58,289 nt of DNA, from the IMG/VR virus record IMGVR_UViG_3300027513_000017, positions 1 to 58,289 of that record; one strand, 5' to 3'. This DNA is from a virus. Taxonomy: Duplodnaviria > Caudoviricetes. The notes under the pieces were generated by a model that searched no databases, had not been told where the DNA came from, and saw only the letters and a list, made by a program, of their open reading frames with translations. The translations under genes and the position numbers were made by a program. Below, in pieces: positions 1-58,289 of the stretch (positions within the stretch are counted from its first letter, which is position 1; every line of letters starts with the position of its first letter).

Positions 1-158
1 AGAACGGGCAGATTGTTCCGTTAGGTTTGGATGAGCAGGACACGCCTCCGGTACTGACGGCAATCGTCAGAGGCCGGAAGATGCCGGTGCGTAACTCATC
101 GGGTGTTTATGGAGGTGAGGAGTGGTCTAACAATCCGGTGGATATTCTCCGTTTCATA
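1..158. repeat. Terminal direct repeat, left copy (circular-assembly overlap)
   Basis: 1-158 matches 58132-58289 except T32 vs C58163; lies inside a coding sequence. Confidence 0.95.
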
Positions 159-3100: not shown

Positions 3101-4262
3101 AGGCACTAACGTCTCGAATGGAAGCCGCTCGTACACTGAATCGGACTTCTTACGCGGTAGGTTTGAAACTGATGATGATGTGATTCATTCAGCGAGTGAG
3201 CGCGTGGTCTATATGAATGGGGCAGAGATATTTGTTGAACTGCCGATCTCTCAAGTGGGCATTCCGTTCAATATAAAAGTTGTCACTACGAATCAGGACG
3301 TTGCAGATGCGACAGCGATTCCGTTTACGTGGGCGGGGAATAATGTTCGACCGCGCAAGATTACAGAGATCTACATTGCCAAAGACGGATCGAATGATTG
3401 GTTAATTCAATTCTTGGGCCATCCGCGACCGTTTGAAATGCCCGCTGAGTATGTGGTTGAGATTTGGGAAGACCACACGCGAAACGATCCGACCAAACTA
3501 AAACGGAGACTCCCCGTTACGGAGGGAACGACGCACGCGTGCTTGCTGAATTCGTCAGGGTCAACCTATGTGCAGGAAGACGATCCCGAAGGTGTACCAG
3601 GGGGTCTTATTCGCGTTGAAGATACTCACGCTGATAAGAACAATCTACACGGAGACGGCATTGCGGATGTCAACGGTCAAACGCTCGAAGACATCAAGAA
3701 CACGTTCACTCGTTTCAGTTTCACGTTGGCGATTGAAGACTCAGGTACTGGCATAGGTAAATCGGTGAGTGCTGGACTGATTAGCGAAGATGGAGTCACA
3801 ACACCACCGACATTCAATACAAGCCTCTCGCCCGCTGTAGTGAGGTTGTCCGATGACACAGGAACAGTAAACGAGATTGTTTCTACCTACGGCACAACAG
3901 TCTCATCCAGCACACTAGGAAGTGGTGGTGATATTTCCCAACGGTACGCCATCATTCTGAGCGGCACTGAGTATCGCGTTTATCGAGACTATGAGGCCGC
4001 AGGCGGGCAAGTGCCGTTAGCAATTATCCCTGCTCCAAGCGCAGGGTTCCCGTTCCCTCTGCGATTGAAAATGAACATCGACCAAATCAACGGCGATGAA
4101 GTACACGTCACTAACGTCACCGCAGGCGGCGCACTTAGACCAACAACCATCTATTCCTTGGCGGAACAACTGGAGGATTTCGGGGTTGAGCAGAGCATGT
4201 TATTTCTCCGCATCTACCAGAAAGGCAGATATGCAGACATCGGAGATCCGGTTGACTTCTAA
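3..4262 (+). CDS. Tail hub / host-specificity (central tail fibre-like) protein, 3' part; gene starts at 57153 and spans the origin (about 1746 aa)
   Basis: In frame with the ORF from ATG 57153 (58158 equals position 27); follows tape measure and distal tail genes; NPVDILR, LEEGDVI, LRGRFET and C-terminal YSLAEQLEDFG motifs typical of J/GTA-type hub proteins. Confidence 0.85.
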   Translation, partial: NGQIVPLGLDEQDTPPVLTAIVRGRKMPVRNSSGVYGGEEWSNNPVDILRFIMTDSKFVNVDEAFMDDAVLHLTAQHCDAPILDDSGSQIIVIPSIEEPIAGDAFSRYRATGIYTPRYFLYNNLGDGSLIPEFVDGPYIGIDQGGSLPDPSVSTDPTFLSQKPLIKRYTFNSTISEEVRATDFINKTLLPSFKGFLRVNKNGKIEIRSEVSSDSTRLRTATAVGATSIPVLDVTPWKTGPELLKGRVLLGFGLTTSEVRTPSAADYSTSGNAITLTASGSGTVTATASGATLSGGSTSVPATGTITIGGGSTVPAGVSYQNDFGMTTGAGGAITVTSGGWGNSGAATVASIALADDGQFGGVLGLGTIVLGLGYSDSPTTNTDLEYGLQLNGPSGIASLIISGAAPVALIPCSPGDRFDVIKQDGVIRFTKNGAIINTGSIAIPAVTGTLYGNVVGFTNGANLTSAEMGTADVAGGTVNIAIGGIAVSYEFGADVIEGIAAMIAAYINANQRLNKFIRATWDSSNPEVITITCLHGALTVPALLKAHTTALADPTSAPTAAGSSGGSLPAGTYFLAYSDVNAIGETYLTASASVVVTANQKIDVSSIAALVGTSRNYYLSESAGSTNLRFVANRTNNTNFSITDVPEVGAAQSPTWNQTAEELLRVAKSFATNSQDIYPEWKASFGVTMSDTYLPTVLNGHKYQVTTAGTTGTTEPTWPTTAGGTVASGTAVFTETGSTVLAQAGLSRSNVIKNSFKWPLGSRQSTVNQIKTAYRSAKDDFALQPLTVNDYTHQAYVKKKYPLEIDLSGVDNFNQAKRLCNFNLSKYREGDHFHALGTGPSGLVLEEGDVICTSDDSGGLINVVTRIEELRITKDHDVYITQARRYSTLMFSDDVGSHRIPLASTLRFAATKDTLAEFIDTIAIRDSDAMVPGFKIALSHDLAVEGDWRGASVWADFGDGYKFLKKHDVAATIGTCDTTLGAVSDIEVFDEINTVDFTLDYEDGQFGDDMTEAELLANPYRRLFLIGDEYVQAGTNVSNGSRSYTESDFLRGRFETDDDVIHSASERVVYMNGAEIFVELPISQVGIPFNIKVVTTNQDVADATAIPFTWAGNNVRPRKITEIYIAKDGSNDWLIQFLGHPRPFEMPAEYVVEIWEDHTRNDPTKLKRRLPVTEGTTHACLLNSSGSTYVQEDDPEGVPGGLIRVEDTHADKNNLHGDGIADVNGQTLEDIKNTFTRFSFTLAIEDSGTGIGKSVSAGLISEDGVTTPPTFNTSLSPAVVRLSDDTGTVNEIVSTYGTTVSSSTLGSGGDISQRYAIILSGTEYRVYRDYEAAGGQVPLAIIPAPSAGFPFPLRLKMNIDQINGDEVHVTNVTAGGALRPTTIYSLAEQLEDFGVEQSMLFLRIYQKGRYADIGDPVDF

Positions 4263-41169: not shown

Positions 41170-41942
41170 TTCATTTAGTCACATTTGCAGATGAGTCGAT
41201 GAGCAGAGCGCGTCAGTTATGTGCTGATAGCGCAATTCGCCACGGTGTTAATCAGGTGCATCTGTGTTCGCCTGAATTCCCAACAACGGAACGCGGTTAC
41301 GGCTTTTGGCGTTGGAAGCCGGAGATGATAATCGATCGCATGAACGGTACTGAGTTCGTTGACCCGCTCAAAGACGGAGAAATCTTGATCTACAGCGATG
41401 CCGGAATCGAGTTCATCAACTCCGTCTCCCACATCATCGAGCGCATGGATCAGGACATCTTTCTATTTGGAAACAACTGGGAACACGCGCATTGGTGCAA
41501 GAGAGACATTGTTCAATGCGTCTGGCCCACTGGTAACGATGCTCCACCAGATGAAACGGTCGTGTTAGATCCGCGCCCGTGGTCGGATTTCGGCAAGCAA
41601 GTGCAAGCCTCAGTAATCTTCTTTCGTGTCTCTGACTACTCTAGAAAGTTTGTGGCTGAATGGTTGCAGTGGTGCTTGTTTGAAGGTGGGCGATTGATAG
41701 ACGACTCACCAAGCAGGGTTCCAAACCATCCAGAGTTTAGAGAGAACAGACACGATCAAGCGATACTGACTACGCTGGCGTATAGGGAAGGGATTAAACT
41801 TCATTATTGGCCTAGTGTGTACAACAAGGGCGGTTCCCCTGAGTTTGTGTACGACAAGTTGCCTGAGTATCAGAGTGACGACTATCCCGTGTTGTTTTCT
41901 CACCACAGGAAACGCAATCACGAATGGAGCGAAGCTGCATGA
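41166..41942 (+). CDS. Putative glycosyltransferase or glycan-modifying enzyme
   Basis: GYGFWRWKP.II, LIY.DAG, WCKRD, F.E.RHDQ motifs; context among glycosyltransferases. Confidence 0.6.
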   Translation: MIHLVTFADESMSRARQLCADSAIRHGVNQVHLCSPEFPTTERGYGFWRWKPEMIIDRMNGTEFVDPLKDGEILIYSDAGIEFINSVSHIIERMDQDIFLFGNNWEHAHWCKRDIVQCVWPTGNDAPPDETVVLDPRPWSDFGKQVQASVIFFRVSDYSRKFVAEWLQWCLFEGGRLIDDSPSRVPNHPEFRENRHDQAILTTLAYREGIKLHYWPSVYNKGGSPEFVYDKLPEYQSDDYPVLFSHHRKRNHEWSEAA

Positions 41943-42538
41943 CATTCGTTCCACGCGTAACCCTCAACGAAGAATCACAAGCAATCTGGCAAGGTGAAAA
42001 CCTTGAGCATCTGCGCTATGAATACGACCTCAAGCCTGACGATGTTGTAATCGACATTGGGGCGCACACAGGGGAATTCAGCCAGCGGATGGTTGAGAAG
42101 TTTCATTGTAAGGCAATCGCTATCGAGCCAACGGGATTCATTACTGATGAGGTGATGGCGAATAAGTCAATCGAAGTGATTCCACAGGCGGCATCGGATT
42201 ACGATGGGCTGCAATCATTTGGCGGTCTCTCACTTTACACTTCCATTTATGAACCGTCAGCGCATCGTTACCCTTGCTTTGATATTTGCACGCTGCTTGA
42301 AAAGTATCCTGACATTGGGTTGGTCAAAATAAACATCGAGGGCGGGGAGTATCGACTGTTGAAGCACGTTCTGCAATCAGGACTACATACCAGGATAAGG
42401 AACTTACAAGTGCAGTTCCATCAGCTTGAAGATCAACCTTATGAGCGGTGGTACGCGGAGATCGCAAATGAGCTGGCAGACACGCATGTTCTGTCGTTCC
42501 AGTATGAATACTGTTGGGAGAATTGGAGGCGAATGTGA
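41939..42538 (+). CDS. FkbM-family methyltransferase
   Basis: VIDIGAHTG.F, IEP, KINIEGGEY, QVQFH. Confidence 0.85.
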   Translation: MTFVPRVTLNEESQAIWQGENLEHLRYEYDLKPDDVVIDIGAHTGEFSQRMVEKFHCKAIAIEPTGFITDEVMANKSIEVIPQAASDYDGLQSFGGLSLYTSIYEPSAHRYPCFDICTLLEKYPDIGLVKINIEGGEYRLLKHVLQSGLHTRIRNLQVQFHQLEDQPYERWYAEIANELADTHVLSFQYEYCWENWRRM

Positions 42539-42735
42539 ACGCTAATTTTGAGGTTCGAGTTGGGCAAGAATGTTTCGGGAATATCGGGCTAGGTATAGTG
42601 CCGAAGCCAGACGGCCTCAAGGCTGTGTTGGTGGAAGTAAAGAACGGCGTCACCTACTTCAACACGGTCAAGGAATTGGACGCAGCCATTGATCTACTGA
42701 CAAAGGCCCGCGCTGAGGCGTTTCCCAATGCTTAG
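42535..42735 (+). CDS. Hypothetical protein
   Basis: GGAGG RBS; GTGA coupling; fills the gap in the cluster. Confidence 0.5.
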   Translation: MNANFEVRVGQECFGNIGLGIVPKPDGLKAVLVEVKNGVTYFNTVKELDAAIDLLTKARAEAFPNA

Positions 42736-43375
42736 TTTTGTAAACAAGTACGCGAAGAACATCTACGCCTCACAAAACGGCGAAGAAGGTATTTTGATCG
42801 AGTGCTGCAAGCGTCTTGGTATCGTTAAAGGTCATTCGGTAGAAGCTGGTGGTGCGAACGGATTATTTTGCAGTAACTCCGCGTTACTACTAAAAGACCA
42901 TCAATGGTCGGGTCTATTTGTCGAAGTGTCATACGACTTGCACCAACAGAGCAAAGCAAATTGGATTGACCGACCTGACGTAAGACACCAGTGTTCAAAG
43001 GTAGATGAGAAGAACATAAACGCCTTCGTAGATGAACGCTGTGATCTCGTCAGCTTAGATACTGACGGAAGCGACTATCGAATCTTTGAAGGCATGACAG
43101 CCAAGCCGAAGATCGTCATCGTGGAGATCGACAGCCGCATCCCGCCAGATGTGGATGAATTTAGCGCGCAGGGGGGTTCAGGATTCCGGCCAATGGTGCA
43201 ACTTGGGATCTCAAAAGGCTATTTTCTCCTTTGTCACGTTGGAAACTTGATATTCGTTGATCGTCAGTATAAAGAATTATTTCCAGAGATAGATGCTGAT
43301 CCATTGGAATATCCAGAAGCGTACTTTCTCGATGCGATCCTGACAGGTGATCGCTCGTACTTAGCCAATGTTTAA
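42728..43375 (+). CDS. FkbM-like SAM methyltransferase
   Basis: SQNGEEG, VE.G...G...SN..L.....WSG..VE, DL.S.D.DG.DY. Confidence 0.75.
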   Translation: MLSFVNKYAKNIYASQNGEEGILIECCKRLGIVKGHSVEAGGANGLFCSNSALLLKDHQWSGLFVEVSYDLHQQSKANWIDRPDVRHQCSKVDEKNINAFVDERCDLVSLDTDGSDYRIFEGMTAKPKIVIVEIDSRIPPDVDEFSAQGGSGFRPMVQLGISKGYFLLCHVGNLIFVDRQYKELFPEIDADPLEYPEAYFLDAILTGDRSYLANV

Positions 43376-43964
43376 TTTTGCCGCCATCCCGAAGTATTGC
43401 ATCAACCTGGCTCGCAGGGTAGACAGACGCGAACATGCGGAGCGGGAATTCCGGCAGCACGGGCTAGACGTTGAATTCATTACCGCCATTGACGGCAACG
43501 ATATTATCCTCCCTGAACTTAGCACTAAGGCACACGAGTATTACGCAAAGGGGAATTGGGCCTGCGTTCTGTCTCACTTATCAATTATCAAACAAGCGTC
43601 TACGGAATATATCTGCATTTTTGAAGACGACGTAAAATTGTGTGACGGGTTTACTGACCGCATGGCAAATATCGAACCACCGGCCTTTGATATTTTCTAT
43701 CTTGCGGGCGGGTACAAAGAAGGTGAAGACATTGGCAACGGATTCCATTCCGTAAAGGTGATGAATGGGACGTGGGCCTACATTCTTGGAAAAACTGCAG
43801 GGGAATTTATCGCGAGAAACATTACCTATAATTGGGGGCCGGATCAATTCTATTCTGACGTGCTGCTAAGTCGGTTTAGGGGCATCACCTACTTACCGTC
43901 AATGGCCACACCTTCGGCGTTAGCCGCAGACGGCGACATAGGGGGGCCGAGTACCGCAAGATGA
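43368..43964 (+). CDS. Glycosyltransferase family 25
   Basis: YCINL.RR.DRR, AIDG, AC.LSH, IFEDD. Confidence 0.85.
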   Translation: MFNFAAIPKYCINLARRVDRREHAEREFRQHGLDVEFITAIDGNDIILPELSTKAHEYYAKGNWACVLSHLSIIKQASTEYICIFEDDVKLCDGFTDRMANIEPPAFDIFYLAGGYKEGEDIGNGFHSVKVMNGTWAYILGKTAGEFIARNITYNWGPDQFYSDVLLSRFRGITYLPSMATPSALAADGDIGGPSTAR

Positions 43965-44506
43965 GCGAGCACCTGGGAGGAGCATTCGAGGAAGGAGATC
44001 CACTCACGTTCATGCCCGACATTTGGGGCTACTTGTTGGTCAAGTATGCATTGAAATCGGTGCTTGATATTGGTTGTGGATTTGGTTATGCGTTGAAATG
44101 GTTTGCCGAGCAAGGCTGTCAGATTCTAGGTGTCGAGGGATGGCATGAAGCAGTGGAGAGGTCGCAAGTGCCGAGTGTTATTGAGCACGACTTTCAGGAC
44201 GGTATCCCTGAAATCAGCCAGTCGTTTGACCTCGTTTGGAGTGCGGAATTTTTAGAACACGTTGAGGAGCAATATCTACCGAACATCATGCCTGTTTTCC
44301 AAAAGGCGACGTATTCCTGTATTACTCATGGAGAACCAGGACAACCCGGGTATCATCACGTCAACTGTCAGTCTGACGGTTACTGGATTGATAAATTTGC
44401 TGAGTATGGAATGATCCTGAACGAACAAGAGACAGCACTGTTAAGGCGGACTGATCGAGGGGGATTGTACGGCAGACGGACGCTGATGTTGTTTACGACG
44501 CAATGA
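43961..44506 (+). CDS. Class I SAM-dependent methyltransferase
   Basis: SVLDIGCG.G, FDL..S.E..EH, PGQ.G.HH.N.Q...YW. Confidence 0.85.
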   Translation: MSEHLGGAFEEGDPLTFMPDIWGYLLVKYALKSVLDIGCGFGYALKWFAEQGCQILGVEGWHEAVERSQVPSVIEHDFQDGIPEISQSFDLVWSAEFLEHVEEQYLPNIMPVFQKATYSCITHGEPGQPGYHHVNCQSDGYWIDKFAEYGMILNEQETALLRRTDRGGLYGRRTLMLFTTQ

Positions 44507-45264
44507 CAAACCTCGTTACCTTTAACATGCTAGGCCGCTATGGGCGACTCTGCAATCAGATGTACCAGATCGCGGGAGTGATTGGCGTAGCACGCAAGAA
44601 CGGCTTTGACTTCGCCTTCCCTCAGTGGCGCAACTGGGACCACGTTGAACGCTTTGGTTCAAGCGATGACTGCGATGTCTACAAGCATTTTGTTAATCCA
44701 CTTCCCTTATACGATGGCCCGTCACTCCCTAATCAATCAGTCGAGTGGGGCTATCACGATGTCAAACTAACTCAAGCCGTAAGCCTCTCAGGTCACTTTC
44801 AGTCAGAGAAATACTTTGAACACGCGATCGATGAGGTCAAGTGGTACTTCACAATGAAGGACGAACCTCTGTGTAATGACTATGTGGCGATCCACGTTCG
44901 GCGGGGGGATTACGATGACGCCTATCACCCGCGAGTCCCTGAGAGTTACTACCGAGCGGCAATGAGTGAGTTTCCCGATGCTCAGTTTCTAGTTTTCAGT
45001 GATGACATTGCGGAATGTAAAGAAATGTTTGGCTCGGAGGTCGATTACTCCGATGGACGTGATTACCTAGAGGACTTCAAGTTACTGAAACGCTGTAGGC
45101 ACTTCATCATTGGTAACAGCTCCTACGGGGCAATGGCGGCAGTATTAGGCGAAGCGGAAGACAAGAGAGTGGTGACACCGCGTCCGTGGTTTGGCCCTAA
45201 GTACACCGGAATTACGGGTGCAGATATTTATCCTTCAGGCGCGGTGATTATTGACTACGCATGA
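44503..45264 (+). CDS. Alpha-1,2-fucosyltransferase (GT11)
   Basis: [31 protein letters not shown]. Confidence 0.9.
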
Positions 45265-46235
45265 CTAGAGCGTTAATAACCGGAATCACGGGTCAAGACG
45301 GTAGTTACTTAGCTGAACTGCTTCTGAGTAAGGGATATGAAGTACACGGCATCGTCCGACGATCTTCTTCCTTCAATACGGGTCGCATAGACCACATCTT
45401 TGAACAGTTACACCTTCACTTTGCCGATCTCACCGACTCTTGCTCGTTAATGAATCTCTTGCAGAAGGTTCAGCCTCACGAAGTCTACAACCTCGGCGCA
45501 CAGTCGCACGTACAAGTCTCGTTTGACATTCCTGAATACACCGGAAATGCCACCGGTCTTAGTGCTACTCGATTACTAGAGTCCATTCGAGGGCTACAAC
45601 TTGAACCGAAGTTCTACCAGGCATCATCTTCTGAGCTGTTTGGTCAGGTCAAAGAGATCCCACAACGGGAAACGACACCGTTCTACCCACGCTCCCCGTA
45701 TGGATGCGCGAAGGCTTATGCATATTACGTGACGGTAAACTACCGAGAAGCATTCGGGATGCAGGCGAGCAACGGGATTCTCTTTAACCATGAGTCCGAA
45801 CGGCGCGGGGAGACATTCGTATCGCGCAAGATTACGCGAGCAGCCACTAGAATTAAACTCGGCCTACAGGACAAACTGTTCTTAGGGAACCTTGATGCAC
45901 AGCGCGATTGGGGCCACGCAAAAGACTATGTGAGAGCGATGTACCTAATGCTCCAGCATGATGCGGATGACTACGTAATCGCTACAGGTGAGACGCACTC
46001 AGTCAGAGAGTTTCTGACGGCGGCATTTGGTTATCTGGATCTCGATTGGAAGCGATATGTAGAGGTTGATCAGCGATACTTCCGACCGGCAGAGGTTGAT
46101 TTCCTGCAAGGTGACGCAAGCAAGGCAAGAAGGGTTTTAGGATGGGAGCCGGAAATAGGATTCACCGACTTAGTGCAATCAATGGTTGATGCAGATCTGA
46201 AATTAGCGCGGAATGAGGTACTTCTAGCCGCGTGA
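45261..46235 (+). CDS. gmd: GDP-mannose 4,6-dehydratase
   Basis: [69 protein letters not shown]. Confidence 0.97.
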
Positions 46236-47119
46236 AGACGTATATATCAGGACATACAGGATTAGTTGGCTCTGCTTTACTCCGGCGTCTCCCTGACTCT
46301 ATCACGCGCACGCGGGCAGAACTAGACCTGACCGACCAAAGGGCTGTTGACTACTTCTTCCACAAAGAGAAACCGGAATACGTTTACCTGGCAGCGGCTA
46401 AAGTCGGCGGGATACACGCTAATCAAACCTATCCGGCAGACTTCATTAGACACAATCTCGCCATCCAAACGAACGTGGTTCATTCCGCGTGGCAGCATGG
46501 CGTAAAGAAACTAATCTTTCTTGGCTCATCATGTATCTACCCTCGTGATTGTCCACAACCGATGAAGGAAGAATATCTATTGTCAGGCCAGTTGGAACCT
46601 ACAAATCAGTGGTACGCGGTCGCCAAGATAGCCGGCTTGAAGATGTGTGAGGCTTATCGGAATCAGTATGGGTTGAATTGCGTGTCAGTGATGCCTACAA
46701 ACCTTTACGGTCCTAACGATCATTTTGATTCGGTGAACTCTCATGTAGTTCCGAGTCTGATTAGTAAGTTTGCTAAGGGTGGCAAGGTAACGGTGTGGGG
46801 AACAGGCAAGCCAAAACGCGAACTGCTTCATGTTGATGACCTGGCTGATGCGCTCTTGACCATCATGGAGTCCTACGAAGGAGACCTAATCAACATCGGT
46901 TCAGGTGATGAAGTAACGATTCGGGAACTGGCAGAAATGATCGGAGAGATAGCCGGACACAGAGGGCCGGTTGAGTTTGACGAGACGAAACCAGACGGAC
47001 CAATGAGGAAACTGGTTGACGGTTCAAAACTTAAAGCTTTCTGGCAACCTAAAATCACGTTACATGAAGGTCTCCGCGCAACCTTTCAACACTATCAAGC
47101 ACGACTGGTACTTGCTTGA
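46232..47119 (+). CDS. fcl: GDP-L-fucose synthase (epimerase/reductase)
   Basis: [50 protein letters not shown]. Confidence 0.95.
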
Positions 47120-47346: not shown

Positions 47347-47392
47347 TTTGACAATCATTTAGCGAGCCAGTGTACGCCTTTGAGCGTTACCC

Positions 47393-47433
47393 GCCCGCCG
47401 TGATCTTCGAAAGAGGATTGCGACGGGCTTTTT
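47393..47433 (+). terminator. Terminator-like hairpin in the leader of the prohead protease gene
   Basis: 16-bp stem (one mismatch, several G-U pairs) with GAAA loop followed by TTTTT; TTGACA at 47348. Confidence 0.65.
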
Positions 47434-47453
47434 CGTTTTGGAGCACTCCCAAG

Positions 47454-48497
47454 ATGCCCATTGAACGCAAGTCTTACCCTATTGCCGAACTCAAGAGCGA
47501 CGACGACTCAGGAATTATTGAGGCGATTGTCAGCGTGTTTTCGAACATTGATCTCGGCAACGAGAAGGTAATGCCGGGGTTCTTCGCCAAGTCGATCGAG
47601 AAGAAACTCCCTAAAGGCGTGTGGGCGCATGACTGGAAGCAGCCCATCGCAAAGACACTCGAAGCGAAAGAACTTCTTCCTGGCGATCCGCTTCTTCCTG
47701 CTCATCTGAAGAAACTCGGCGGGGCATACATCAAGGGCCAATTCAATCGAGACACCCAACGAGGACGCGAAGCCTACTCCGACATCAAGTTTGGAATCAT
47801 TGACGAATTCTCCATCGGTTACTCAGTCACTAAAGACGGCAAGGACAACGATACCGGAGCACGAGAACTGATCGAGGGTGAATGGAAAGAGTGGAGTCCA
47901 GTGCTGGTCGGAATGAACGATCAAACCGCGTTGATCTCCATCAAGTCTGACGATCACGAAGTTCAAGGTGTTCCAACTAAAGGAATGTTGGCCGAAGAGA
48001 TGGCCCAGACCACGCCTTCGACTTGGGAGGTGCAGTCGGCGTTCTCTCGTGTGATTCGCAAGATTGCCGAGTCAGCCAAAAATTCAGACATAACAGATTT
48101 AGAGTTCGATTGGAAAGCTAAAGCTACGCTGGCGTGTTCTGAGTTGGGATCGGAATTGACGCCGTTAGTCATCGCTCAGATCGAAGAATACCTGAACAGT
48201 TCAGACAGTGAGTTTTACCTCAAAGGTTCGGTAGCCGATCCCTTTGAGTCCTTCGAAAAAGCGGTAGCCGCAATTGAGAAGAACACCGCCAATTTAGAGC
48301 GCAACCACGAGAACCGGGTCAAAGAAGGCCGGATTCTCTCTTCCTCAAATCGAGCCAAAGTTCAATCCGCTTATGACGCTCTCGGAGCGTTGCTGGCCGC
48401 GTCTGAACCCCCGCCGAAAGAGAAAGAGATCGATGGTGCCGCGCTAAGGACTCAATCGCTACGGATGCAGAGCAAGGCAATAGCAGCTCTGCTATGA
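47454..48497 (+). CDS. HK97-family prohead protease with C-terminal extension
   Basis: SVF...D...E....G.F, W.HD...PI, EFSIGY, E.SPV..G.N; KEGR.LS..N. Confidence 0.9.
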   Translation: MPIERKSYPIAELKSDDDSGIIEAIVSVFSNIDLGNEKVMPGFFAKSIEKKLPKGVWAHDWKQPIAKTLEAKELLPGDPLLPAHLKKLGGAYIKGQFNRDTQRGREAYSDIKFGIIDEFSIGYSVTKDGKDNDTGARELIEGEWKEWSPVLVGMNDQTALISIKSDDHEVQGVPTKGMLAEEMAQTTPSTWEVQSAFSRVIRKIAESAKNSDITDLEFDWKAKATLACSELGSELTPLVIAQIEEYLNSSDSEFYLKGSVADPFESFEKAVAAIEKNTANLERNHENRVKEGRILSSSNRAKVQSAYDALGALLAASEPPPKEKEIDGAALRTQSLRMQSKAIAALL

Positions 48498-48508
48498 GGG
48501 ATTAAACG

Positions 48509-49807
48509 ATGCCTTTAGAGCAGGATGCCGCGCTACTGCAAACAAAAGTAGCCGAGACACGCGCTTTTTGGGACAAGGTTGGCGATGCCGATCTAACCCA
48601 AGAGCAGAAGCAGGAAATCGACGGGATCAACAAGACGGTTGAAGAGTTGAGCGCGAAGGTTTCCGAGTCAAAAAAATACCAACAAATTAGAGCAGAGCAA
48701 GAAGCGTTAGCCGCTGGCTTGAATGCACCGGTTCACACTCCTGACTTTGGTAGCAAGGATCTCAAAGGTCGCGAACCTGAGCGTGAGACCAAGAGTGTTG
48801 GTGAGCGGTTCACTGACCGCAAGGAATTCAAGGAATGGTTCAAGAGCGTTGCGCCGTCCGGCGAGATCAACGAAACCTCATCGATCGGATTCTCCTGTCC
48901 ACCGTTGACTCTCGAGGGTAAGGCTCTCGTGACTGGTTCGTCCGCTGCTTCCGGTGGCGCGTTGGTGCGACGTGACTATGCCGGTCTCGTTGATTTTCCG
49001 TTCCGTCCAATGACGTTGCGAGATGTCATTACGATTGGCCGAACGGGGTCAGATCTGATCGAGTTCCCGCGCGTAGTTAGCTACACCTCGGCTGCTGCCA
49101 CCGTGGCCGAAGCAACGACTGCTCCAACATCCTTTAGTCAGGCAAGCAACGGTTTGAAGCCTGAGTCATCGATGGTCCTAGAGAAGGTTACGGCGACAGT
49201 GAAGACCATTGCTCACTGGATACCGCTAACCCGACGCGCTCTGTCTGATGCACCGCAAATCGAAACCCTCATCAACAACTTTCTCGAGTTTGGCTTGGAT
49301 GATGCCGAGGAAACTCAGATCGTAACCGGCAACGGATCGGGCGAGAACTTCCTCGGTCTCGACAACACTCCAAACATCACTCTCCAGGCATTCGACACGG
49401 ACATCCTGACCACGACCCGCAAAGCCAGAACAGCGGCAGCCGTAACAGGTCGCGCGCGGTCTACCGCGTTTGTGATGCACCCGTATGACTGGGAAGCCTT
49501 CGACCTCTTGAAGGACGCAGAGAACCGCTACTACTGGGGTGGCCCAACGGTTCTCGGACAGAAGATGTTGTGGGGTCTCCCGGTTGTTGAGTCTGAGGCG
49601 ATGCGCCTAAAGACTTTTTACACAGGCGATCTCAAGCAGGCAATTTTGTGGGACAGAGAAATGATGACGATTCGCATGAGCGATGCGCCTAACGATTTCT
49701 TCCTGCGAAACATGTTGGCGATTCTCGCAGAACGCAGAGCGGCCTTCGGTGTGTTTAGACCGCCCGCAATCGTTCGCGGAGACCTTCTGGCAGGTCCTAA
49801 CAGTTAA
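48509..49807 (+). CDS. Major capsid protein (HK97 fold)
   Basis: N-terminal coiled-coil delta domain; KTIAHW...R.AL.DAP, G.G.G.N..G, MHP.DW, LWGLPVV, F..N...I.AE.R. Confidence 0.95.
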   Translation: MPLEQDAALLQTKVAETRAFWDKVGDADLTQEQKQEIDGINKTVEELSAKVSESKKYQQIRAEQEALAAGLNAPVHTPDFGSKDLKGREPERETKSVGERFTDRKEFKEWFKSVAPSGEINETSSIGFSCPPLTLEGKALVTGSSAASGGALVRRDYAGLVDFPFRPMTLRDVITIGRTGSDLIEFPRVVSYTSAAATVAEATTAPTSFSQASNGLKPESSMVLEKVTATVKTIAHWIPLTRRALSDAPQIETLINNFLEFGLDDAEETQIVTGNGSGENFLGLDNTPNITLQAFDTDILTTTRKARTAAAVTGRARSTAFVMHPYDWEAFDLLKDAENRYYWGGPTVLGQKMLWGLPVVESEAMRLKTFYTGDLKQAILWDREMMTIRMSDAPNDFFLRNMLAILAERRAAFGVFRPPAIVRGDLLAGPNS

Positions 49808-49844
49808 TTAACCTCGTGGCGGTCCATAGCCCGTTACGCCAGCA

Positions 49845-49878
49845 GGCGGCTTCTCTTGCTCCCGTAGGAGGAGCCGCC
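49845..49878 (+). promoter_or_regulatory. Hairpin sequestering the SD of the GT4 gene
   Basis: GGCGGCTTCTC pairs with GGAGGAGCCGCC, which contains the GGAGGAG SD upstream of ATG 49887. Confidence 0.55.
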
Positions 49879-49886
49879 CTTACTTT

Positions 49887-51191
49887 ATGAAACTACTTTT
49901 TATCCTTCACATGTATCAGCCTTACCACAATGCGGGTGGTGAGACGACCGCGCACACTGCGATGAAGGCGATGGTAGATCGAGGCCACGATGTAACGGTA
50001 GTTTTTAGGCCGCAGAATGAAACCGAAGGCGACAAGTGTCCTGACATCTATGAATACGAGGGCGTGAAATGCATTAAGAGTCCGCTGAACACCGCCCAAG
50101 CATTCATTAAGGATGTGATCACTCGCATAGATCCAGACCTCTTAATCACTCACCTCGACCTGACCACCTTAGCGATGCAGTTGAGTCTTGATACTCATAA
50201 ACCTTTGGCCCATTGGGTACACAACACAATGAGTCTTGATGTGTTTCATGTGTCCCCGCAGAAGTGCCAACTAGCAATCTTTAACTCAAATTGGGTGGCT
50301 GAGTTCTACAAGTGGAAAGGTCCACAGATCGTGATCCATCCCACGGTGGAGCCAGATCGCTATCGGTGTGAAAAAGGCACGAAGATCACGCTCGTTAATC
50401 CAACCCCAGGCAAAGGCGCGGATCAGTTTTATCAACTCTCCAAGATGCTCCCTGATTATGAATTTCTGACAGTGAAGAGTGTTTATGGCGAACAGATCGC
50501 GGTGCCGAATATATCGGCTCATCTTCACCCGAACGTGGAAACGATGGAGCACACGGCAGACATCAGGGAAGCGTTACGCAAGACAAAAGTTCTCCTGATG
50601 CCCTCGCAGTACGAGTCCTATGGTCGCGTAGCAGTCGAGGCGGCGTGTTCTGGTATTCCGACTATCGCTCACCCGACCCCCGGGCTATTGGAAGCGTTGG
50701 GTGACGCGGGAATCTTCTGCGATAGAGACGATCTCCCGTCATGGAAGAACGCTATCGAGCGGTTAATGACAGATGATGTCTATTACCGCAAACGCTCAGA
50801 TTTAGCCCTCGAACTAGCTAACAGTCTCGATCCTGAGAGCGAATTCGATCGATTGGAGGAAGCATTGTTAGTCACTAGCAGAGCATTTAACCAGGAGGAC
50901 GTAATGGAAAGAGTTTTGTACGCCAATCGAAGGTTTGGAAAGAAGCCTGATGGCAGTCTGAGCGATCAGATGCACGAGTGTCGCTCGCTCGTTTGCGGTG
51001 GTCCAGGTGCGCCAATTCCTTTCGAGTGTTTAGAGGAAGCAAAGGCGTTGGGTTATGCCGATATACCCGCAGATCAGCCGTCAGAGAAGACCGAGATTCT
51101 TCTGGACACGAAAGCACTAACTGAAGCTCCAGAGAACAAGGCGATTCAGGAACCTGAGCAGAAGAAAACAAGGAAGCGAAAGACCGCCTGA
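49887..51191 (+). CDS. GT4-family glycosyltransferase fused to a C-terminal post-capsid small-protein domain
   Basis: GGE......M..RGH.V.V, KG...F, LLMPS.YESYGRVAVEA...G.P; extra tail of about 95 aa. Confidence 0.85.
   Translation: MKLLFILHMYQPYHNAGGETTAHTAMKAMVDRGHDVTVVFRPQNETEGDKCPDIYEYEGVKCIKSPLNTAQAFIKDVITRIDPDLLITHLDLTTLAMQLSLDTHKPLAHWVHNTMSLDVFHVSPQKCQLAIFNSNWVAEFYKWKGPQIVIHPTVEPDRYRCEKGTKITLVNPTPGKGADQFYQLSKMLPDYEFLTVKSVYGEQIAVPNISAHLHPNVETMEHTADIREALRKTKVLLMPSQYESYGRVAVEAACSGIPTIAHPTPGLLEALGDAGIFCDRDDLPSWKNAIERLMTDDVYYRKRSDLALELANSLDPESEFDRLEEALLVTSRAFNQEDVMERVLYANRRFGKKPDGSLSDQMHECRSLVCGGPGAPIPFECLEEAKALGYADIPADQPSEKTEILLDTKALTEAPENKAIQEPEQKKTRKRKTA
50904..51191 (+). CDS. In-frame internal ORF (95 aa), putative post-capsid small protein
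   Basis: AGGAGG 50893-50898 five nt before in-frame ATG 50904; ends APENKAIQEPEQKKTRKRKTA. Confidence 0.55.
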   Translation: MERVLYANRRFGKKPDGSLSDQMHECRSLVCGGPGAPIPFECLEEAKALGYADIPADQPSEKTEILLDTKALTEAPENKAIQEPEQKKTRKRKTA

Positions 51192-51763
51192 TGTACGTCG
51201 AGAACGAAGATGTCAGAGATGCAGCCGAGGGGATGGCTGTTGATGAACTCGGAGAACATGAGTTGGAACAGATAATTCTCCGCGCTTCACGCATGTTCGA
51301 TCTCGCTTGCGGAGTTGAGCCTGAATACTTCGAGGCTAATGACGCCGACGCTACCGAGCGAACATTCTATGGCGATGGGTCGAACTTTCTAAGGCTTGAT
51401 CCTTATGTTCCGGGTTCTTTGAATACAACGATCACCTTTCCTGAAGGCTATTCGGATCTCAGTTTTGTTGAGCGTGATGGTTACTTAGTGAGAACAGAGA
51501 ACTCGTTTCTTGTTTCGCGTCACGTTTACGGTGGGTGGTATGTGAACGCTCCGATTACAGTGTCGGCCCAGTGGGGTCTTGAAGCCACTCCTGATGACGT
51601 AAAACAGGCGGTCATTGAACTAACGATCAACTTGTGGCGCGAGATTGATCCGGCGCATTTGAAGTTAGTCGGTGTCGATAATCAACCTCTCAGGGAGACG
51701 TTACCGCCGAGGGTATCCGCAATCGCTAAGAAGTATCGGGTTAAGAATGGAGTGATGGTTTGA
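51191..51763 (+). CDS. Head-tail connector/adaptor
   Basis: I..ASR..D..C, R.F.GDG...L, V.A.WG....P.DVKQA. Confidence 0.8.
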   Translation: MYVENEDVRDAAEGMAVDELGEHELEQIILRASRMFDLACGVEPEYFEANDADATERTFYGDGSNFLRLDPYVPGSLNTTITFPEGYSDLSFVERDGYLVRTENSFLVSRHVYGGWYVNAPITVSAQWGLEATPDDVKQAVIELTINLWREIDPAHLKLVGVDNQPLRETLPPRVSAIAKKYRVKNGVMV

Positions 51764-56742: not shown

Positions 56743-57153
56743 ATGCCAGCAGAATTTCCATTTCCGAGTGTTAGTGGTTCAAACCCAATCCCGCTTTTCT
56801 ATGAGAAGTTGCCGGAGCGTTTCAATGTGGGCCGGACTATCTACGACGACAGCGGCGTCGATAAGAAACTTCAATCAGGTGGAGCGGGAGTCAAGACTTA
56901 CGTAATCCGCTATGACGGACTCACTGCCGCAGAGGCGGCCATCCTTGATAACTGGGCCGCAACGATGTTCTACAGCGAAGATGAAGGAAGCGCCTACGCC
57001 TGTAACTTCAGGGAGCACGTAGCGGGAACAGCATGGACAGACACGAGCGGAACACTCCTTTCAAATGTCTACATAGCAGCGGGTGGTTACAAGAAGTCCC
57101 ACGAGAAAACATGGTCTAACGCGCGTGAATTCCTGATGGAGAAATACGGCTAA
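56743..57153 (+). CDS. Distal tail / minor tail protein
   Basis: Small gene between tape measure and hub genes. Confidence 0.65.
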   Translation: MPAEFPFPSVSGSNPIPLFYEKLPERFNVGRTIYDDSGVDKKLQSGGAGVKTYVIRYDGLTAAEAAILDNWAATMFYSEDEGSAYACNFREHVAGTAWTDTSGTLLSNVYIAAGGYKKSHEKTWSNAREFLMEKYG

Positions 57154-58289
57154 TGCAGGCTGTGAACTCCGCGCTTCAGACCGAATTAGACAAGGGACTT
57201 GGTAGTCCTGTTGTGCTCGTAGACTTGTTCGAGTTCTACGCGGCAGACGAAGTACCAGGCGCAACCGGATTCGATCCGGCTGATGCTATCGAGACTTTTG
57301 CGGCTCAAGAGATTACGTGGAACTCCATCGCTTATCGACGCGAAGTAATCAATCGCTCGGACATCATCAAGTCGATCACTGAGAAGATCAATTCAGTAAC
57401 CCTCACCTTCAGCAACATCAGTCGTTATCTTGCAACATTGGCGCAGAGTCAGGACATGGAAGGAATGATCGTCGTCATTCGCTGTGTCGCACCCTCGGTC
57501 ACTGATGACAGTTTGGTGTTGTTTACAGGAAGATGCGGGAAACCGTCAGACATTGACAAGCAAACATTCTCGATTACCGCTACGCAGGATTTCGGCAATA
57601 TCAACATCACGATCCCGCCAAACAAGTTTGAGTCAGACGATCCAGAGGGCCGCTTACCTTCCGATCCCGAATTTGAGGGAATCCCATTTAATGCTATTGG
57701 AGGTTCTTTAACCTTCCCGCAAGTAGTCCCTGCCACTTCCTTCTTCGGGCGGCTCTTTGGGCGTCGGAAAACTGTTCAGACTACCGCGCAGTGGTCGTCT
57801 ACAGATAACACTCCTTATGGTCAGGTGATCCGAGAATGTTTTGGGCGCACCCAGGTTGAACTAATCATTTTCAACTGGGCCGATAAGGGAACACACGTGG
57901 GCTATTTGGCGGCTGTTTCACGTGGCCCGGTTGCCGCTATTACCAACATTAAATCTCGCACCGAAGGACTCAGCGATCCCGTTTGTAACTTTGCGAATCC
58001 TCCTGCTCCCGCTGTCACGCACTTAGGAAATGTGGGCACCGCGAATGGAGCGGCTACGTGTCAGTCCGATCTGGCCAGAGGTTTGTACTTCTCGAAACTG
58101 GCTTACATCGAAGGGGCTGCTATCGGCTTTCAGAACGGGCAGATTGTTCCGTTAGGTTTGGACGAGCAGGACACGCCTCCGGTACTGACGGCAATCGTCA
58201 GAGGCCGGAAGATGCCGGTGCGTAACTCATCGGGTGTTTATGGAGGTGAGGAGTGGTCTAACAATCCGGTGGATATTCTCCGTTTCATA
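57153..58289 (+). CDS. Tail hub / host-specificity protein, 5' part (continues through the repeat into 3..4262)
   Basis: TAATG-coupled ATG 57153; open frame MQAVNSALQTELDKG...VDLFEFY...NPVDILRFI to the window end. Confidence 0.85.
   Translation, partial: MQAVNSALQTELDKGLGSPVVLVDLFEFYAADEVPGATGFDPADAIETFAAQEITWNSIAYRREVINRSDIIKSITEKINSVTLTFSNISRYLATLAQSQDMEGMIVVIRCVAPSVTDDSLVLFTGRCGKPSDIDKQTFSITATQDFGNINITIPPNKFESDDPEGRLPSDPEFEGIPFNAIGGSLTFPQVVPATSFFGRLFGRRKTVQTTAQWSSTDNTPYGQVIRECFGRTQVELIIFNWADKGTHVGYLAAVSRGPVAAITNIKSRTEGLSDPVCNFANPPAPAVTHLGNVGTANGAATCQSDLARGLYFSKLAYIEGAAIGFQNGQIVPLGLDEQDTPPVLTAIVRGRKMPVRNSSGVYGGEEWSNNPVDILRFI
58132..58289. repeat. Terminal direct repeat, right copy
   Basis: Matches 1-158 with one mismatch. 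Confidence 0.95.

What the first reader, a model, noticed from the sequence alone, without database searches (positions are those of the whole stretch)
49845..51191. GT4 fused in frame to a post-capsid small protein, with a masked upstream SD and a strong internal start
Seen: directly after the capsid gene, the GT4 domain ends near residue 330 and reads on into a tail of about 95 aa. The tail has its own AGGAGG (50893-50898) and in-frame ATG (50904) and ends APENKAIQEPEQKKTRKRK. The SD for the full-length protein is buried in a hairpin (49845-49878). From recall, small Lys-rich PENK-type proteins often follow HK97-type capsid genes. Inference: two isoforms, an abundant small head-associated protein and a rarer GT4-carrying form that tethers the priming glycosyltransferase to the prohead. 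That would be a targeting device for the glycan pathway.
Basis: partly seen in the sequence, partly recalled or inferred. Interest (0 to 1): 0.8.

Follow-up and report, generated by a model that had tools for sequence, protein, structure and literature searches.

The report
Phage glycosyltransferase fused to small head-module protein
A phage sugar-adding enzyme encoded just after the capsid gene has been fused to a small, previously undescribed protein that other phages encode on its own between their capsid and head-tail connector genes, and that small protein may also be made separately from an internal start.

Summary
ORF 49887-51191 (434 aa) is a GT4 glycosyltransferase (res 1-~339) that reads on into a 95-aa tail. 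AGGAGG (50893-98) lies 5 nt before the in-frame ATG 50904. A 15-bp hairpin (49845-78) precedes the gene.

The fusion reading is supported.
- The tail is a ~50-aa folded mini-domain followed by a disordered end with P-x-E-N-K repeats and a basic tip.
- It is homologous (hhalign 97.3%, E 2e-11, motif excluded) to an unnamed family of 70-100-aa phage proteins (175 clusters).
- These stand alone between HK97-type capsid and adaptor genes, in stretches without GT genes.
- Their initiator Met aligns with M340.
- The fusion is kept in 119 of the 120 best relatives.

Internal initiation is plausible but unproven.
- A Met is kept at the junction in 115/119 relatives.
- The four other AGGAGG-N4-9-ATG sites in this genome all lie at ORF starts.
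- Against it, the SD is not conserved beyond what the amino acids dictate (0/21 loci).

The "masked SD" reading is not supported. The hairpin pair is conserved, belongs to the capsid gene's 3' end and looks like a terminator or attenuator.

Tethering of the enzyme to the head remains untested inference.

The parts
41924..47119 (+). Glycan cassette inside the head module: FkbM/FtsJ-like methyltransferases, GT25, methyltransferase, GT11, GDP-mannose 4,6-dehydratase, GDP-fucose-synthase-like epimerase
   Evidence: Pfam hits, (GMD E 5e-134; Epimerase E 1e-62; GT11 E 3e-15; GT25 E 6e-17)
47370..48497 (+). Prohead protease (S78) with a C-terminal extension
   Evidence: PF04586 E 2e-13; phrog_80 E 7e-38
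48509..49807 (+). HK97-type major capsid protein
   Evidence: PF05065 E 2.9e-44; phrog_10 E 5.5e-61
49815..49838 (+). Small conserved hairpin 1 after the capsid stop
   Evidence: Fold; present in 13 of the 14 aligned relatives (missing in L018)
49845..49878 (+). Large conserved hairpin 2 (15 bp, loop 4), terminator-like; its 3' arm holds AGGAGG 49866-49871
   Evidence: Conserved in 14/14 relatives; of the 17 predicted pairs of both hairpins, 6 have compensatory changes (4 of them in this stem). Stays with the capsid 3' end in L003, L015, L016
49887..51191 (+). Fusion ORF, 434 aa: GT4 glycosyltransferase plus small head-module protein
   Evidence: AF2 mean pLDDT 90.8
49887..50903 (+). GT4 (GT-B, retaining type) catalytic part, res 1-339, with invariant E243...E251
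   Evidence: Pfam and PHROG hits; Foldseek to MshA, PglA, BshA, E 1e-17 to 1e-16; invariant columns
50893..50898 (+). Internal AGGAGG, 5 nt before ATG 50904
   Evidence: the 4 other such sites in the genome are at ORF starts
50904..51191 (+). Candidate nested gene: 95-aa small protein (M340-A434) in the GT4 frame
   Evidence: M340 aligns with the initiator Met of stand-alone homologues; a Met is kept at the junction in 115/119 relatives
50907..51062 (+). Folded beta/alpha mini-domain (res 341-392)
   Evidence: pLDDT 85-98 in the full-length model and 76-89 when folded alone; hhalign to the stand-alone family 97.3%, E 1.9e-11
51129..51188 (+). Disordered end: PENK, then a degenerate second repeat PEQKK, then the basic tip TRKRKTA
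   Evidence: pLDDT below 50 for res 396-434; motif shared with fused and stand-alone relatives; only occurrence in the genome
51191..51763 (+). Head-tail adaptor; its ATG overlaps the fusion ORF's TGA by one base
   Evidence: phrog_442 E 5e-10; sequence

Best explanation
ORF 49887-51191 is an old, conserved in-frame fusion of two genes of the head module.

The two parts:
- Residues 1-~339 are a GT4 (GT-B) glycosyltransferase. It belongs to a phage-borne cassette for a fucose-type, methylated glycan that sits among the head genes.
- Residues 340-434 are a member of an unnamed, widespread family of 70-100-aa phage proteins. In other phages these are separate genes between the HK97-type capsid gene and the head-tail adaptor gene.
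- That module is a ~50-aa beta/alpha mini-domain, followed by a disordered end with P-x-E-N-K repeats and a basic tip.

Shown: the fusion, the homology, the shared gene slot, the fold confidence, and conservation of the fusion.

Inferred, about even odds: M340, which is the old initiator Met of the small gene, still works as a start. It is driven here by AGGAGG at 5 nt. The phage would then make the free small protein as well as the enzyme-tagged form, as a nested in-frame gene.

Inferred, weaker: the small module is a head-assembly or head-completion accessory, and in the fusion it brings the GT4 to the assembling head.

The two hairpins upstream are a conserved 3' element of the capsid gene, probably a terminator, attenuator or RNA-stability element. 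It lowers read-through into everything downstream. It is not a dedicated mask of the GT4 ribosome-binding site.
For: GT4 identity:
- Pfam PF13692 scores 52 bits (cut-off 27), PF00534 48.6 (26.4), PF13439 33.2 (28.5).
- Foldseek finds MshA, PglA and BshA at E about 1e-17.

Fusion conserved:
- 1467 hits at E <= 1e-3. 119 of the 120 best listed carry the tail by HMM.
- 21 IMG/VR loci carry it, always in the GT frame, and no separate copy occurs among 8576 frames.
- All 20 loci with upstream sequence are ordered protease-capsid-GT.

Stand-alone relatives:
- A DNA pattern for ENKA..P.ENK in IMG/VR gave 34 loci. 15 were GT fusions and 19 were not. 14 of those 19 also match the tail HMM.
- 9 of 10 upstream ORFs tested are phrog_10 major head proteins.
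- 5 of 10 downstream ORFs are phrog_442 adaptors.
- GenBank MW202444.1 has a 76-aa gene between the capsid genes and the 'tail connector'.
- hhalign of the mini-domains alone gives 97.3%, E 1.9e-11, over 47 columns.
- The family has 175 clusters, many on contigs of 10-64 kb, with no Pfam family.
- None of the 10 small proteins scanned reaches Pfam's cut-off or a PHROG at E <= 0.01.
- No relatives of the window's GT or sugar genes occur in 17 such stretches.

Internal start:
- The initiator Met of the stand-alone forms aligns with the junction Met.
- 100 of 119 fused forms have M just before the conserved W. 15 of the other 19 have M within 7 residues upstream, and 4 have none.
- 20 of 21 DNA loci have an ATG there, and L011 has a GTG.
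- In this genome the 4 other AGGAGG-N4-9-ATG sites all begin ORFs, and AGGAGG is depleted.
- The junction is less structured than the gene average in 14 of 14 loci tested.

Hairpins.
Against: - SD-like strength upstream of the junction start is no greater than synonymous recoding gives in any of 21 loci (p 0.07-1.0; window p 0.43). The AGGAGG may therefore simply follow from the residues Q-E-D.
- The junction Met could be kept for structure, since it abuts a conserved Trp.
- The low RNA structure at the junction may reflect K/E/N-rich composition, and the loci are related.
- The mini-domain has higher confidence inside the full-length model (85-98) than alone (76-89). That fits a domain integrated into the enzyme.
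- There are no data on protein N-termini, no evidence of what the small protein binds, and no known fold or family for it.
- Many genes of this phage lack any SD, so SD-based arguments are soft.
Confidence: 0.6

Rival explanations
1. There is a single fused product only. The tail is now an integral C-terminal domain of the enzyme, serving substrate recognition, oligomerisation or localisation. M340 and the AGGAGG are by-products of the amino-acid sequence, and no free small protein is made.
For: - Synonymous-recoding control: 0 of 21 loci exceed the null, and the window's p is 0.43.
- The mini-domain is very confident within the full-length model.
- The fusion is kept in 119 of 120 relatives, and no split form was seen among the loci.
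Against: - A start codon is kept at the junction in 115/119 relatives. It is relocated upstream in 15 of the 19 that lack it at the main position.
- The junction Met aligns exactly with the initiator of the stand-alone genes.
- The other 4 strong SD+ATG sites in this genome are ORF starts.
- The phage has no other copy of a protein that relatives keep as a separate gene.
Confidence: 0.33
2. The hairpin 49845-49878 is a translational operator. It sequesters the SD of the GT4 gene so that the full-length form is made rarely.
For: - AGGAGG 49866-71 lies in the 3' arm.
- The 3' arm is purine-rich in all relatives.
- In 17 of the 21 loci folded, the GT start lies within about 25 nt of the stem.
Against: - The AGGAGG is 15 nt from the ATG.
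- In L003, L015 and L016 the same hairpin pair sits directly after the capsid stop, while the GT start is 844, 620 and 756 nt further on.
- GC-rich terminator hairpins follow the capsid gene in stand-alone-type phages without this GT.
- It meets the terminator-like criteria.
Confidence: 0.12
3. The tail is an ordinary C-terminal extension of cellular GT4 enzymes, or an assembly or frameshift artefact, with no relation to head proteins.
For: The tail alone found nothing by phmmer against 1.84 billion representatives, and it has no Pfam or PHROG family.
Against: - Only 5 relatives were found in 185,579 species genomes, and none of the 5 matches reaches past query residue 369.
- 119 of 120 metagenomic relatives share the tail in frame, which excludes an artefact.
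- Profile-level homology to the stand-alone head-module proteins.
Confidence: 0.03

Closest known systems
Virion glycosylation of actinobacteriophages (Che8, Corndog and cluster O; Freeman et al. 2023, seen only as cited in PMC11256854, PMC11600133 and PMC13313380, passages read)
   Same: - Phage-encoded glycosyltransferases and O-methyltransferases that modify capsid and tail tube proteins.
- GT genes lie within or near the structural module.
- A GT relative (36% identity, res 2-315) sits between the capsid and major tail genes of Streptomyces phage TurkishDelight.
   Different: - Here the GT4 carries a C-terminal head-module protein, and the cassette includes GDP-fucose synthesis genes.
- No glycosylation has been shown for this phage.
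- The actinophage relatives found here lack the tail.
- The primary paper could not be read.
Nested in-frame genes of phage head modules (lambda C/Nu3, Mu I/Z). The nesting is recalled from knowledge. PMC10695390, passages read, only lists C and Nu3 as protease and scaffold.
   Same: A short protein would be made from an internal in-frame start within a longer head-module gene, so that the two products share a C-terminus.
   Different: - Here the long form is an enzyme of glycan synthesis, not a protease.
- The nested product is evidently a once-separate gene that became fused.
- Initiation has not been shown.
Lambda gpFI, a DNA packaging accessory encoded between E (capsid) and FII (head-tail joining). 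Gene order from PMC10695390 Table 1, passages read; domain layout recalled.
   Same: A small non-enzymatic protein in the same slot between the capsid gene and the head-tail joining gene, with a folded domain plus a flexible region (recalled).
   Different: - No sequence or fold relation was detected. Profile searches of the PDB found nothing, and Foldseek found no match.
- The analogy is positional only.
Terminal targeting peptides that load cargo into HK97-fold shells (encapsulin cargo-loading peptides, T4 capsid targeting sequence). Recalled, not tested.
   Same: A short disordered terminal peptide attached to an enzyme next to an HK97-fold shell gene.
   Different: - No motif similarity is known.
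- Binding to the capsid is not shown here.
- The glycan would be expected on the outside of the shell.

Membership tests
GT4 glycosyltransferase (GT-B fold) | C-terminal Glycos_transf_1-type domain and N-terminal Glyco_transf_4 domain above Pfam cut-offs | tested here: met
   PF13692 52 bits (cut-off 27), PF00534 48.6 (26.4), PF13439 33.2 (28.5)
GT4 glycosyltransferase (GT-B fold) | Two-Rossmann GT-B fold like solved GT4 enzymes | tested here: met
   AF2 pLDDT 90.8; Foldseek MshA E 9.7e-18, PglA, BshA, PimA
GT4 glycosyltransferase (GT-B fold) | E-x7-E motif in the C-terminal domain (motif definition recalled) | tested here: met
   E243 and E251 are invariant in 119 sequences
GT4 glycosyltransferase (GT-B fold) | Donor, acceptor and activity | not testable with these tools
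   Needs an enzyme assay or virion glycoproteomics
Unnamed post-capsid small protein family (P-x-E-N-K repeats) | N-terminal ~50-aa mini-domain homologous to stand-alone members | tested here: met
   hhalign A7 vs A6: 97.3%, E 1.9e-11, 47 columns. The mini-domain HMM alone finds L085 at E 9.5e-4 and P0130 at E 1e-3 among 14,245 frames
Unnamed post-capsid small protein family (P-x-E-N-K repeats) | Disordered C-terminal end with two P-x-E-N-K repeats and a basic tip | tested here: met
   The window has PENK, then a degenerate PEQKK, then TRKRKTA; pLDDT below 50
Unnamed post-capsid small protein family (P-x-E-N-K repeats) | Gene slot between the phrog_10 capsid gene and the phrog_442 adaptor gene | tested here: met
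   Window. Stand-alone loci: 9/10 upstream and 5/10 downstream
Unnamed post-capsid small protein family (P-x-E-N-K repeats) | Encoded as a separate gene | tested here: not met
   Fused in frame to the GT4 in the window and in 21 loci
Nested in-frame gene (internal initiation) | In-frame start codon with SD at working distance | tested here: met
   AGGAGG, 5 nt, ATG at 50893-50906
Nested in-frame gene (internal initiation) | Start codon conserved in relatives | tested here: met
   115 of 119 proteins keep a Met at the junction; 20 of 21 DNA loci have ATG and 1 has GTG
Nested in-frame gene (internal initiation) | Ribosome-binding signal conserved beyond coding constraint | tested here: not met
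   0 of 21 loci beat synonymous recoding
Nested in-frame gene (internal initiation) | Short product observed | not testable with these tools
   Only small contig fragments in RNA libraries; no proteomics
Intrinsic terminator | GC-rich stem-loop directly followed by a U-tract | tested here: inconclusive
   Stem met (15 bp, 9 GC). Tail CTTACTTTAT passes the scan, but L013 and L014 have no T-run after the same stem
SD-sequestering translational hairpin | Sequestered SD 5-10 nt from the start codon, with the hairpin tied to the regulated gene | tested here: not met
   15-nt spacing; the hairpin stays with the capsid gene in L003, L015, L016

The most novel reading that the evidence does not exclude
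The P-x-E-N-K small protein is an unrecognised, widespread head-module component whose disordered C-terminal repeats dock onto the assembling head (capsid or portal vertex). One phage clade has co-opted it as a built-in address tag. The tag delivers a glycosyltransferase to its virion substrate, while a retained internal start still supplies the untagged protein. This would be the first described device that targets an enzyme for post-translational virion glycosylation.
Probability: 0.2. Interest if true: 0.8.

Novelty: new variant of a known kind. Interest (0 to 1): 0.6.

Why it matters
Phage virion glycosylation was recognised only recently, and how the enzymes find their structural-protein substrates is not known.

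This work offers several testable leads:
- A conserved fusion of a GT4 to a head-module protein gives a concrete hypothesis for substrate targeting.
- It defines a small protein family (175 clusters, no Pfam or PHROG family) that sits in a fixed slot of many HK97-type head modules and has no assigned role.
- It provides a candidate nested gene.
- It provides a conserved RNA element after the capsid gene whose stem base is invariant in 14 relatives whose capsid proteins are only 46-63% identical.

If the tag idea holds, the tail could be used to direct other enzymes or cargo to phage heads.

Tried and rejected
- **Tail alone (105 aa), phmmer against 1.84 billion representatives:** 0 hits. The single sequence was too short and divergent. 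Profiles were needed.
- **Tail profile A2 in the 48-174-aa range:** 10 hits. Most are contig-edge fragments of fused genes. Only P0130 and perhaps P0128 were useful.
- **ESM Atlas:** best score 0.83, small viral hypothetical proteins. A lead only.
- **Fold of the tail alone against PDB and BFVD:** no match at E <= 0.001 (best 1.4).
- **Profile searches of PDB sequences:** nothing below E 1.
- **Rfam:** no family in the whole window or at the hairpins.
- **Complex prediction, capsid alignment A9 plus tail alignment A8:** verdict 'no answer', score 0.00, controls not run (collected). This is neither for nor against binding.
- **Sequencing runs:** the stretch occurs in groundwater and sediment metagenomes. 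Three RNA libraries hold only single 200-230-nt contigs, two within the capsid gene and one within the adaptor gene, at depth 2-3. This gives no information on starts, ends or expression, and uncovered parts mean nothing.
- **Synonymous-recoding test of the internal SD:** negative.
- **RNA-structure dip at the junction:** run on 14 of the 21 loci. L006, L007, L009, L010, L014, L021 and L051 were left out as near-duplicates. The result is confounded by composition and relatedness.
- **Motif elsewhere in the genome:** P-x-E-N/T-K or ENKA occurs once only.
- **Assembly-artefact reading:** rejected.
- **Literature:** no paper describing this small protein family or such a fusion came up. Those searches were not exhaustive, and paper supplements were closed.
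Full report
**What is there.**
- The window is a complete phage genome of about 58.1 kb. Its two ends repeat 158 nt.
- The head module runs terminase (36638), portal (38054), a glycan cassette (41924-47119), prohead protease (47370), HK97-type capsid (48509-49807), the ORF in question (49887-51191), and a phrog_442 head-tail adaptor (51191-51763).
- The cassette holds methyltransferases, GT25, GT11, GDP-mannose 4,6-dehydratase and a GDP-fucose-synthase-like epimerase.

**The enzyme part.**
- Residues 17-301 hit the GT4 Pfam domains above their cut-offs. A PHROG of unknown function (phrog_26352) covers residues 1-327.
- An AlphaFold2 model built on 119 sequences has mean pLDDT 90.8. Foldseek finds the GT4 enzymes MshA, PglA, BshA and PimA at E about 1e-17 to 1e-13.
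- E243 and E251 are invariant.

**The tail is conserved, and only in phage-like contigs.**
- A search with the whole protein gave 1467 hits. 119 of the 120 best listed (355-515 aa) carry the tail by a tail HMM. The exception, P0107, is 355 aa.
- In IMG/VR, 21 loci carry the tail, always in the GT frame. No separate tail ORF occurs among 8576 frames of at least 30 aa, and the window has no second copy.
- All 20 of these loci that have upstream sequence are ordered protease-capsid-GT.
- About 28 further loci, and the 5 relatives found in 185,579 species genomes (Actinomycetes and one Myxococcales MAG), have the GT without the tail.
- Streptomyces phage TurkishDelight gp20 is such a tailless relative. 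It also lies between the capsid and major tail genes.

**Anatomy of the tail.**
- Alignments show a block M-W-x-s-D-R-x-I-Y...D-G...A...G-x-G-x-x-I-P...A...G-W.
- This is followed by a linker of variable length, then K-A-[IV]-x-x-P-x-E-N-K-A-[IV]-x-x-P-x-E-N-K, then a basic end.
- In the model, residues 341-392 are confident (pLDDT 85-98) and residues 396-434 are disordered.
- Folded alone, the first 50 residues keep pLDDT 76-89.

**Stand-alone relatives.**
- The single tail sequence found nothing. I therefore scanned IMG/VR for a degenerate DNA pattern of the repeat motif.
- Of 34 loci, 15 were GT fusions and 19 were not. 14 of those 19 also match the tail HMM. They are small ORFs that end in the same motif and basic tip. 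Five pairs are near-duplicates.
- Their position was not part of the search. Even so, 9 of 10 upstream ORFs tested are phrog_10 major head proteins, the family of the window's capsid.
- 5 of 10 downstream ORFs are phrog_442 adaptors, and 2 weakly match a head-decoration PHROG.
- An Ig-like ORF of 120-180 aa often lies between the capsid gene and the small gene.
- GenBank MW202444.1 has the order protease, capsid, hypothetical, 76-aa hypothetical, tail connector. Microcystis phage Mwe-Yong1112-1 has the mini-domain inside a 257-aa protein two genes after its capsid gene.
- With the motif left out, a profile-profile comparison of the mini-domains of fused and stand-alone forms gives 97.3% probability, E 1.9e-11, over 47 columns.
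- A profile of six stand-alone proteins finds 175 clusters of 41-181 aa, many on contigs of 10-64 kb, none with a Pfam family.
- None of the 10 small proteins scanned reaches Pfam's cut-off or a PHROG at E <= 0.01.
- The 17 stand-alone stretches held (3.8-14.5 kb each) have no relative of the window's GT4, GT11, GT25, GMD or epimerase.

**Is the small protein also made alone?**

For:
- The initiator Met of stand-alone proteins (M-I-[AS]-D) aligns with the junction Met of the fusions (M-W-x-s-D).
- Among 119 fused proteins, 100 have M directly before the conserved Trp.
- 15 of the other 19 have M within seven residues upstream, the window among them. 4 have none.
- An upstream M occurs in 15/19 of those lacking the main M against 47/100 of those that have it. 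Fisher p = 0.012, not corrected for relatedness.
- 20 of 21 DNA loci have an ATG there, and L011 has a GTG.
- In this genome AGGAGG is depleted (16 against 25 expected).
- The four other AGGAGG-N4-9-ATG sites all lie at the first or nearly first start of ORFs of 203, 54, 40 and 67 codons.
- The 50-nt window around the junction start is less structured than the gene average in 14 of 14 loci tested (mean z +1.1).

Against:
- When the codons upstream are recoded synonymously, SD-like pairing as strong as observed arises in 43% of recodings for the window. No locus of 21 reaches p < 0.05. The signal is therefore not conserved beyond the amino-acid sequence.
- Most relatives have only weak GGAG or GAGG at long spacing.
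- The structure dip can come from composition.
- Many genes of this phage have no SD at all.
- There are no data on proteins. RNA libraries hold only small contig fragments.

I put functional internal initiation at about even odds.

**The hairpins.**
- The region between the capsid stop and the GT start forms two hairpins. Both recur in 13 of the 14 aligned relatives, and the large one in all 14 (L018 lacks the small one).
- Those relatives' capsid proteins are only 46-63% identical to the window's, yet the base of the large stem is invariant.
- Six of the 17 predicted pairs show compensatory changes.
- The large stem meets the terminator-like criteria, but the T-run is absent in L013 and L014.
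- The decisive observation comes from L003, L015 and L016, where another gene lies between capsid and GT. There the hairpin pair stays directly after the capsid stop, and the GT start is 620-844 nt away.
- GC-rich hairpins also follow the capsid gene in stand-alone-type phages. Those of L085, L092 and L063 have clear T-runs.
- The element therefore belongs to the capsid gene. A terminator, attenuator or RNA-stabilising role fits best. It would lower expression of everything downstream.
- It is not a mask made for the GT4's SD, which in any case would lie 15 nt from the ATG.

**Function.**
- No fold or family match was found for the mini-domain.
- Its fixed slot, its tight coupling to the adaptor gene (overlapping stop and start in the window, L060, L066 and L085) and its absence from cellular genomes point to a head-assembly or head-completion accessory.
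- Lambda gpFI occupies the same slot (gene order from PMC10695390, passages read), but no relation was detected.
- That the fusion brings the GT4 to the head is a reasonable inference from conservation of the fusion. Phage GTs and methyltransferases are known to modify capsid and tail proteins (Freeman et al. 2023, seen only through citing papers PMC11256854, PMC11600133 and PMC13313380).

**Verdict.**
- The two-isoform reading is open.
- The masked-SD reading is replaced by a conserved post-capsid RNA element.
- The targeting idea is untested.
- This is a new variant of known kinds: phage virion-glycosylation enzymes and nested head-module genes. It also brings to light an undescribed small protein family.

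Noticed in passing
window 1-158 and 58132-58289: A 158-nt direct repeat at the two ends (99% identical). The window is a complete circularly assembled or terminally redundant genome of about 58,131 bp. The last ORF (57153-58289, open) continues into the first (3-4262).
   Followed up: partly
window 49815-49878 and relatives L002-L028: The two-hairpin element after the capsid gene has an invariant stem base in 14 relatives whose capsid proteins are only 46-63% identical to the window's. It has no Rfam family. It may deserve a covariance model and a wider search.
   Followed up: partly
window 49887 vs 49911: The public protein identical to this ORF (P0001) is 426 aa, so it was called from the ATG at 49911 (M9). 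Homologues conserve the N-terminal strand MK[IL]LF, so 49887 is the better start.
   Followed up: partly
L005 3169-3936: In one relative, a 256-aa ORF with an HNH-endonuclease-like motif (recognised by eye) is inserted between the capsid gene and the GT gene. L003, L015 and L016 have other inserted ORFs there.
   Followed up: no
L063 3604-5205: In one phage with a stand-alone small protein, the next gene encodes a 534-aa protein whose C-terminal 200 residues match a methyltransferase PHROG (phrog_6564, E 2e-68) in place of the adaptor. This is another modifying enzyme in this slot.
   Followed up: no
L067 6090-6551, L060 1436-1909, L084 3083-3598 (-), L061 2884-3285, L076 171-680: ORFs of 134-172 aa between the capsid gene and the small gene match phrog_5707 or the Ig-like ends of tail proteins. 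They are possibly Ig-like head decoration proteins occupying the place that the GT4 holds in the window's clade.
   Followed up: no
window 47370-48497: The prohead protease ORF has about 185 residues beyond the S78 domain (domain at res 41-189 of 375). This could be a scaffold-like part or another nested product. Its GTG start is uncertain, since an M-P-I-E-R-K sequence follows 28 codons in.
   Followed up: no
window 43368-47119: GT25, GT11, GDP-mannose 4,6-dehydratase and a GDP-fucose-synthase-like gene lie between portal and protease. GT11 relatives sit upstream of the protease in most tailed relatives as well.
   Followed up: partly
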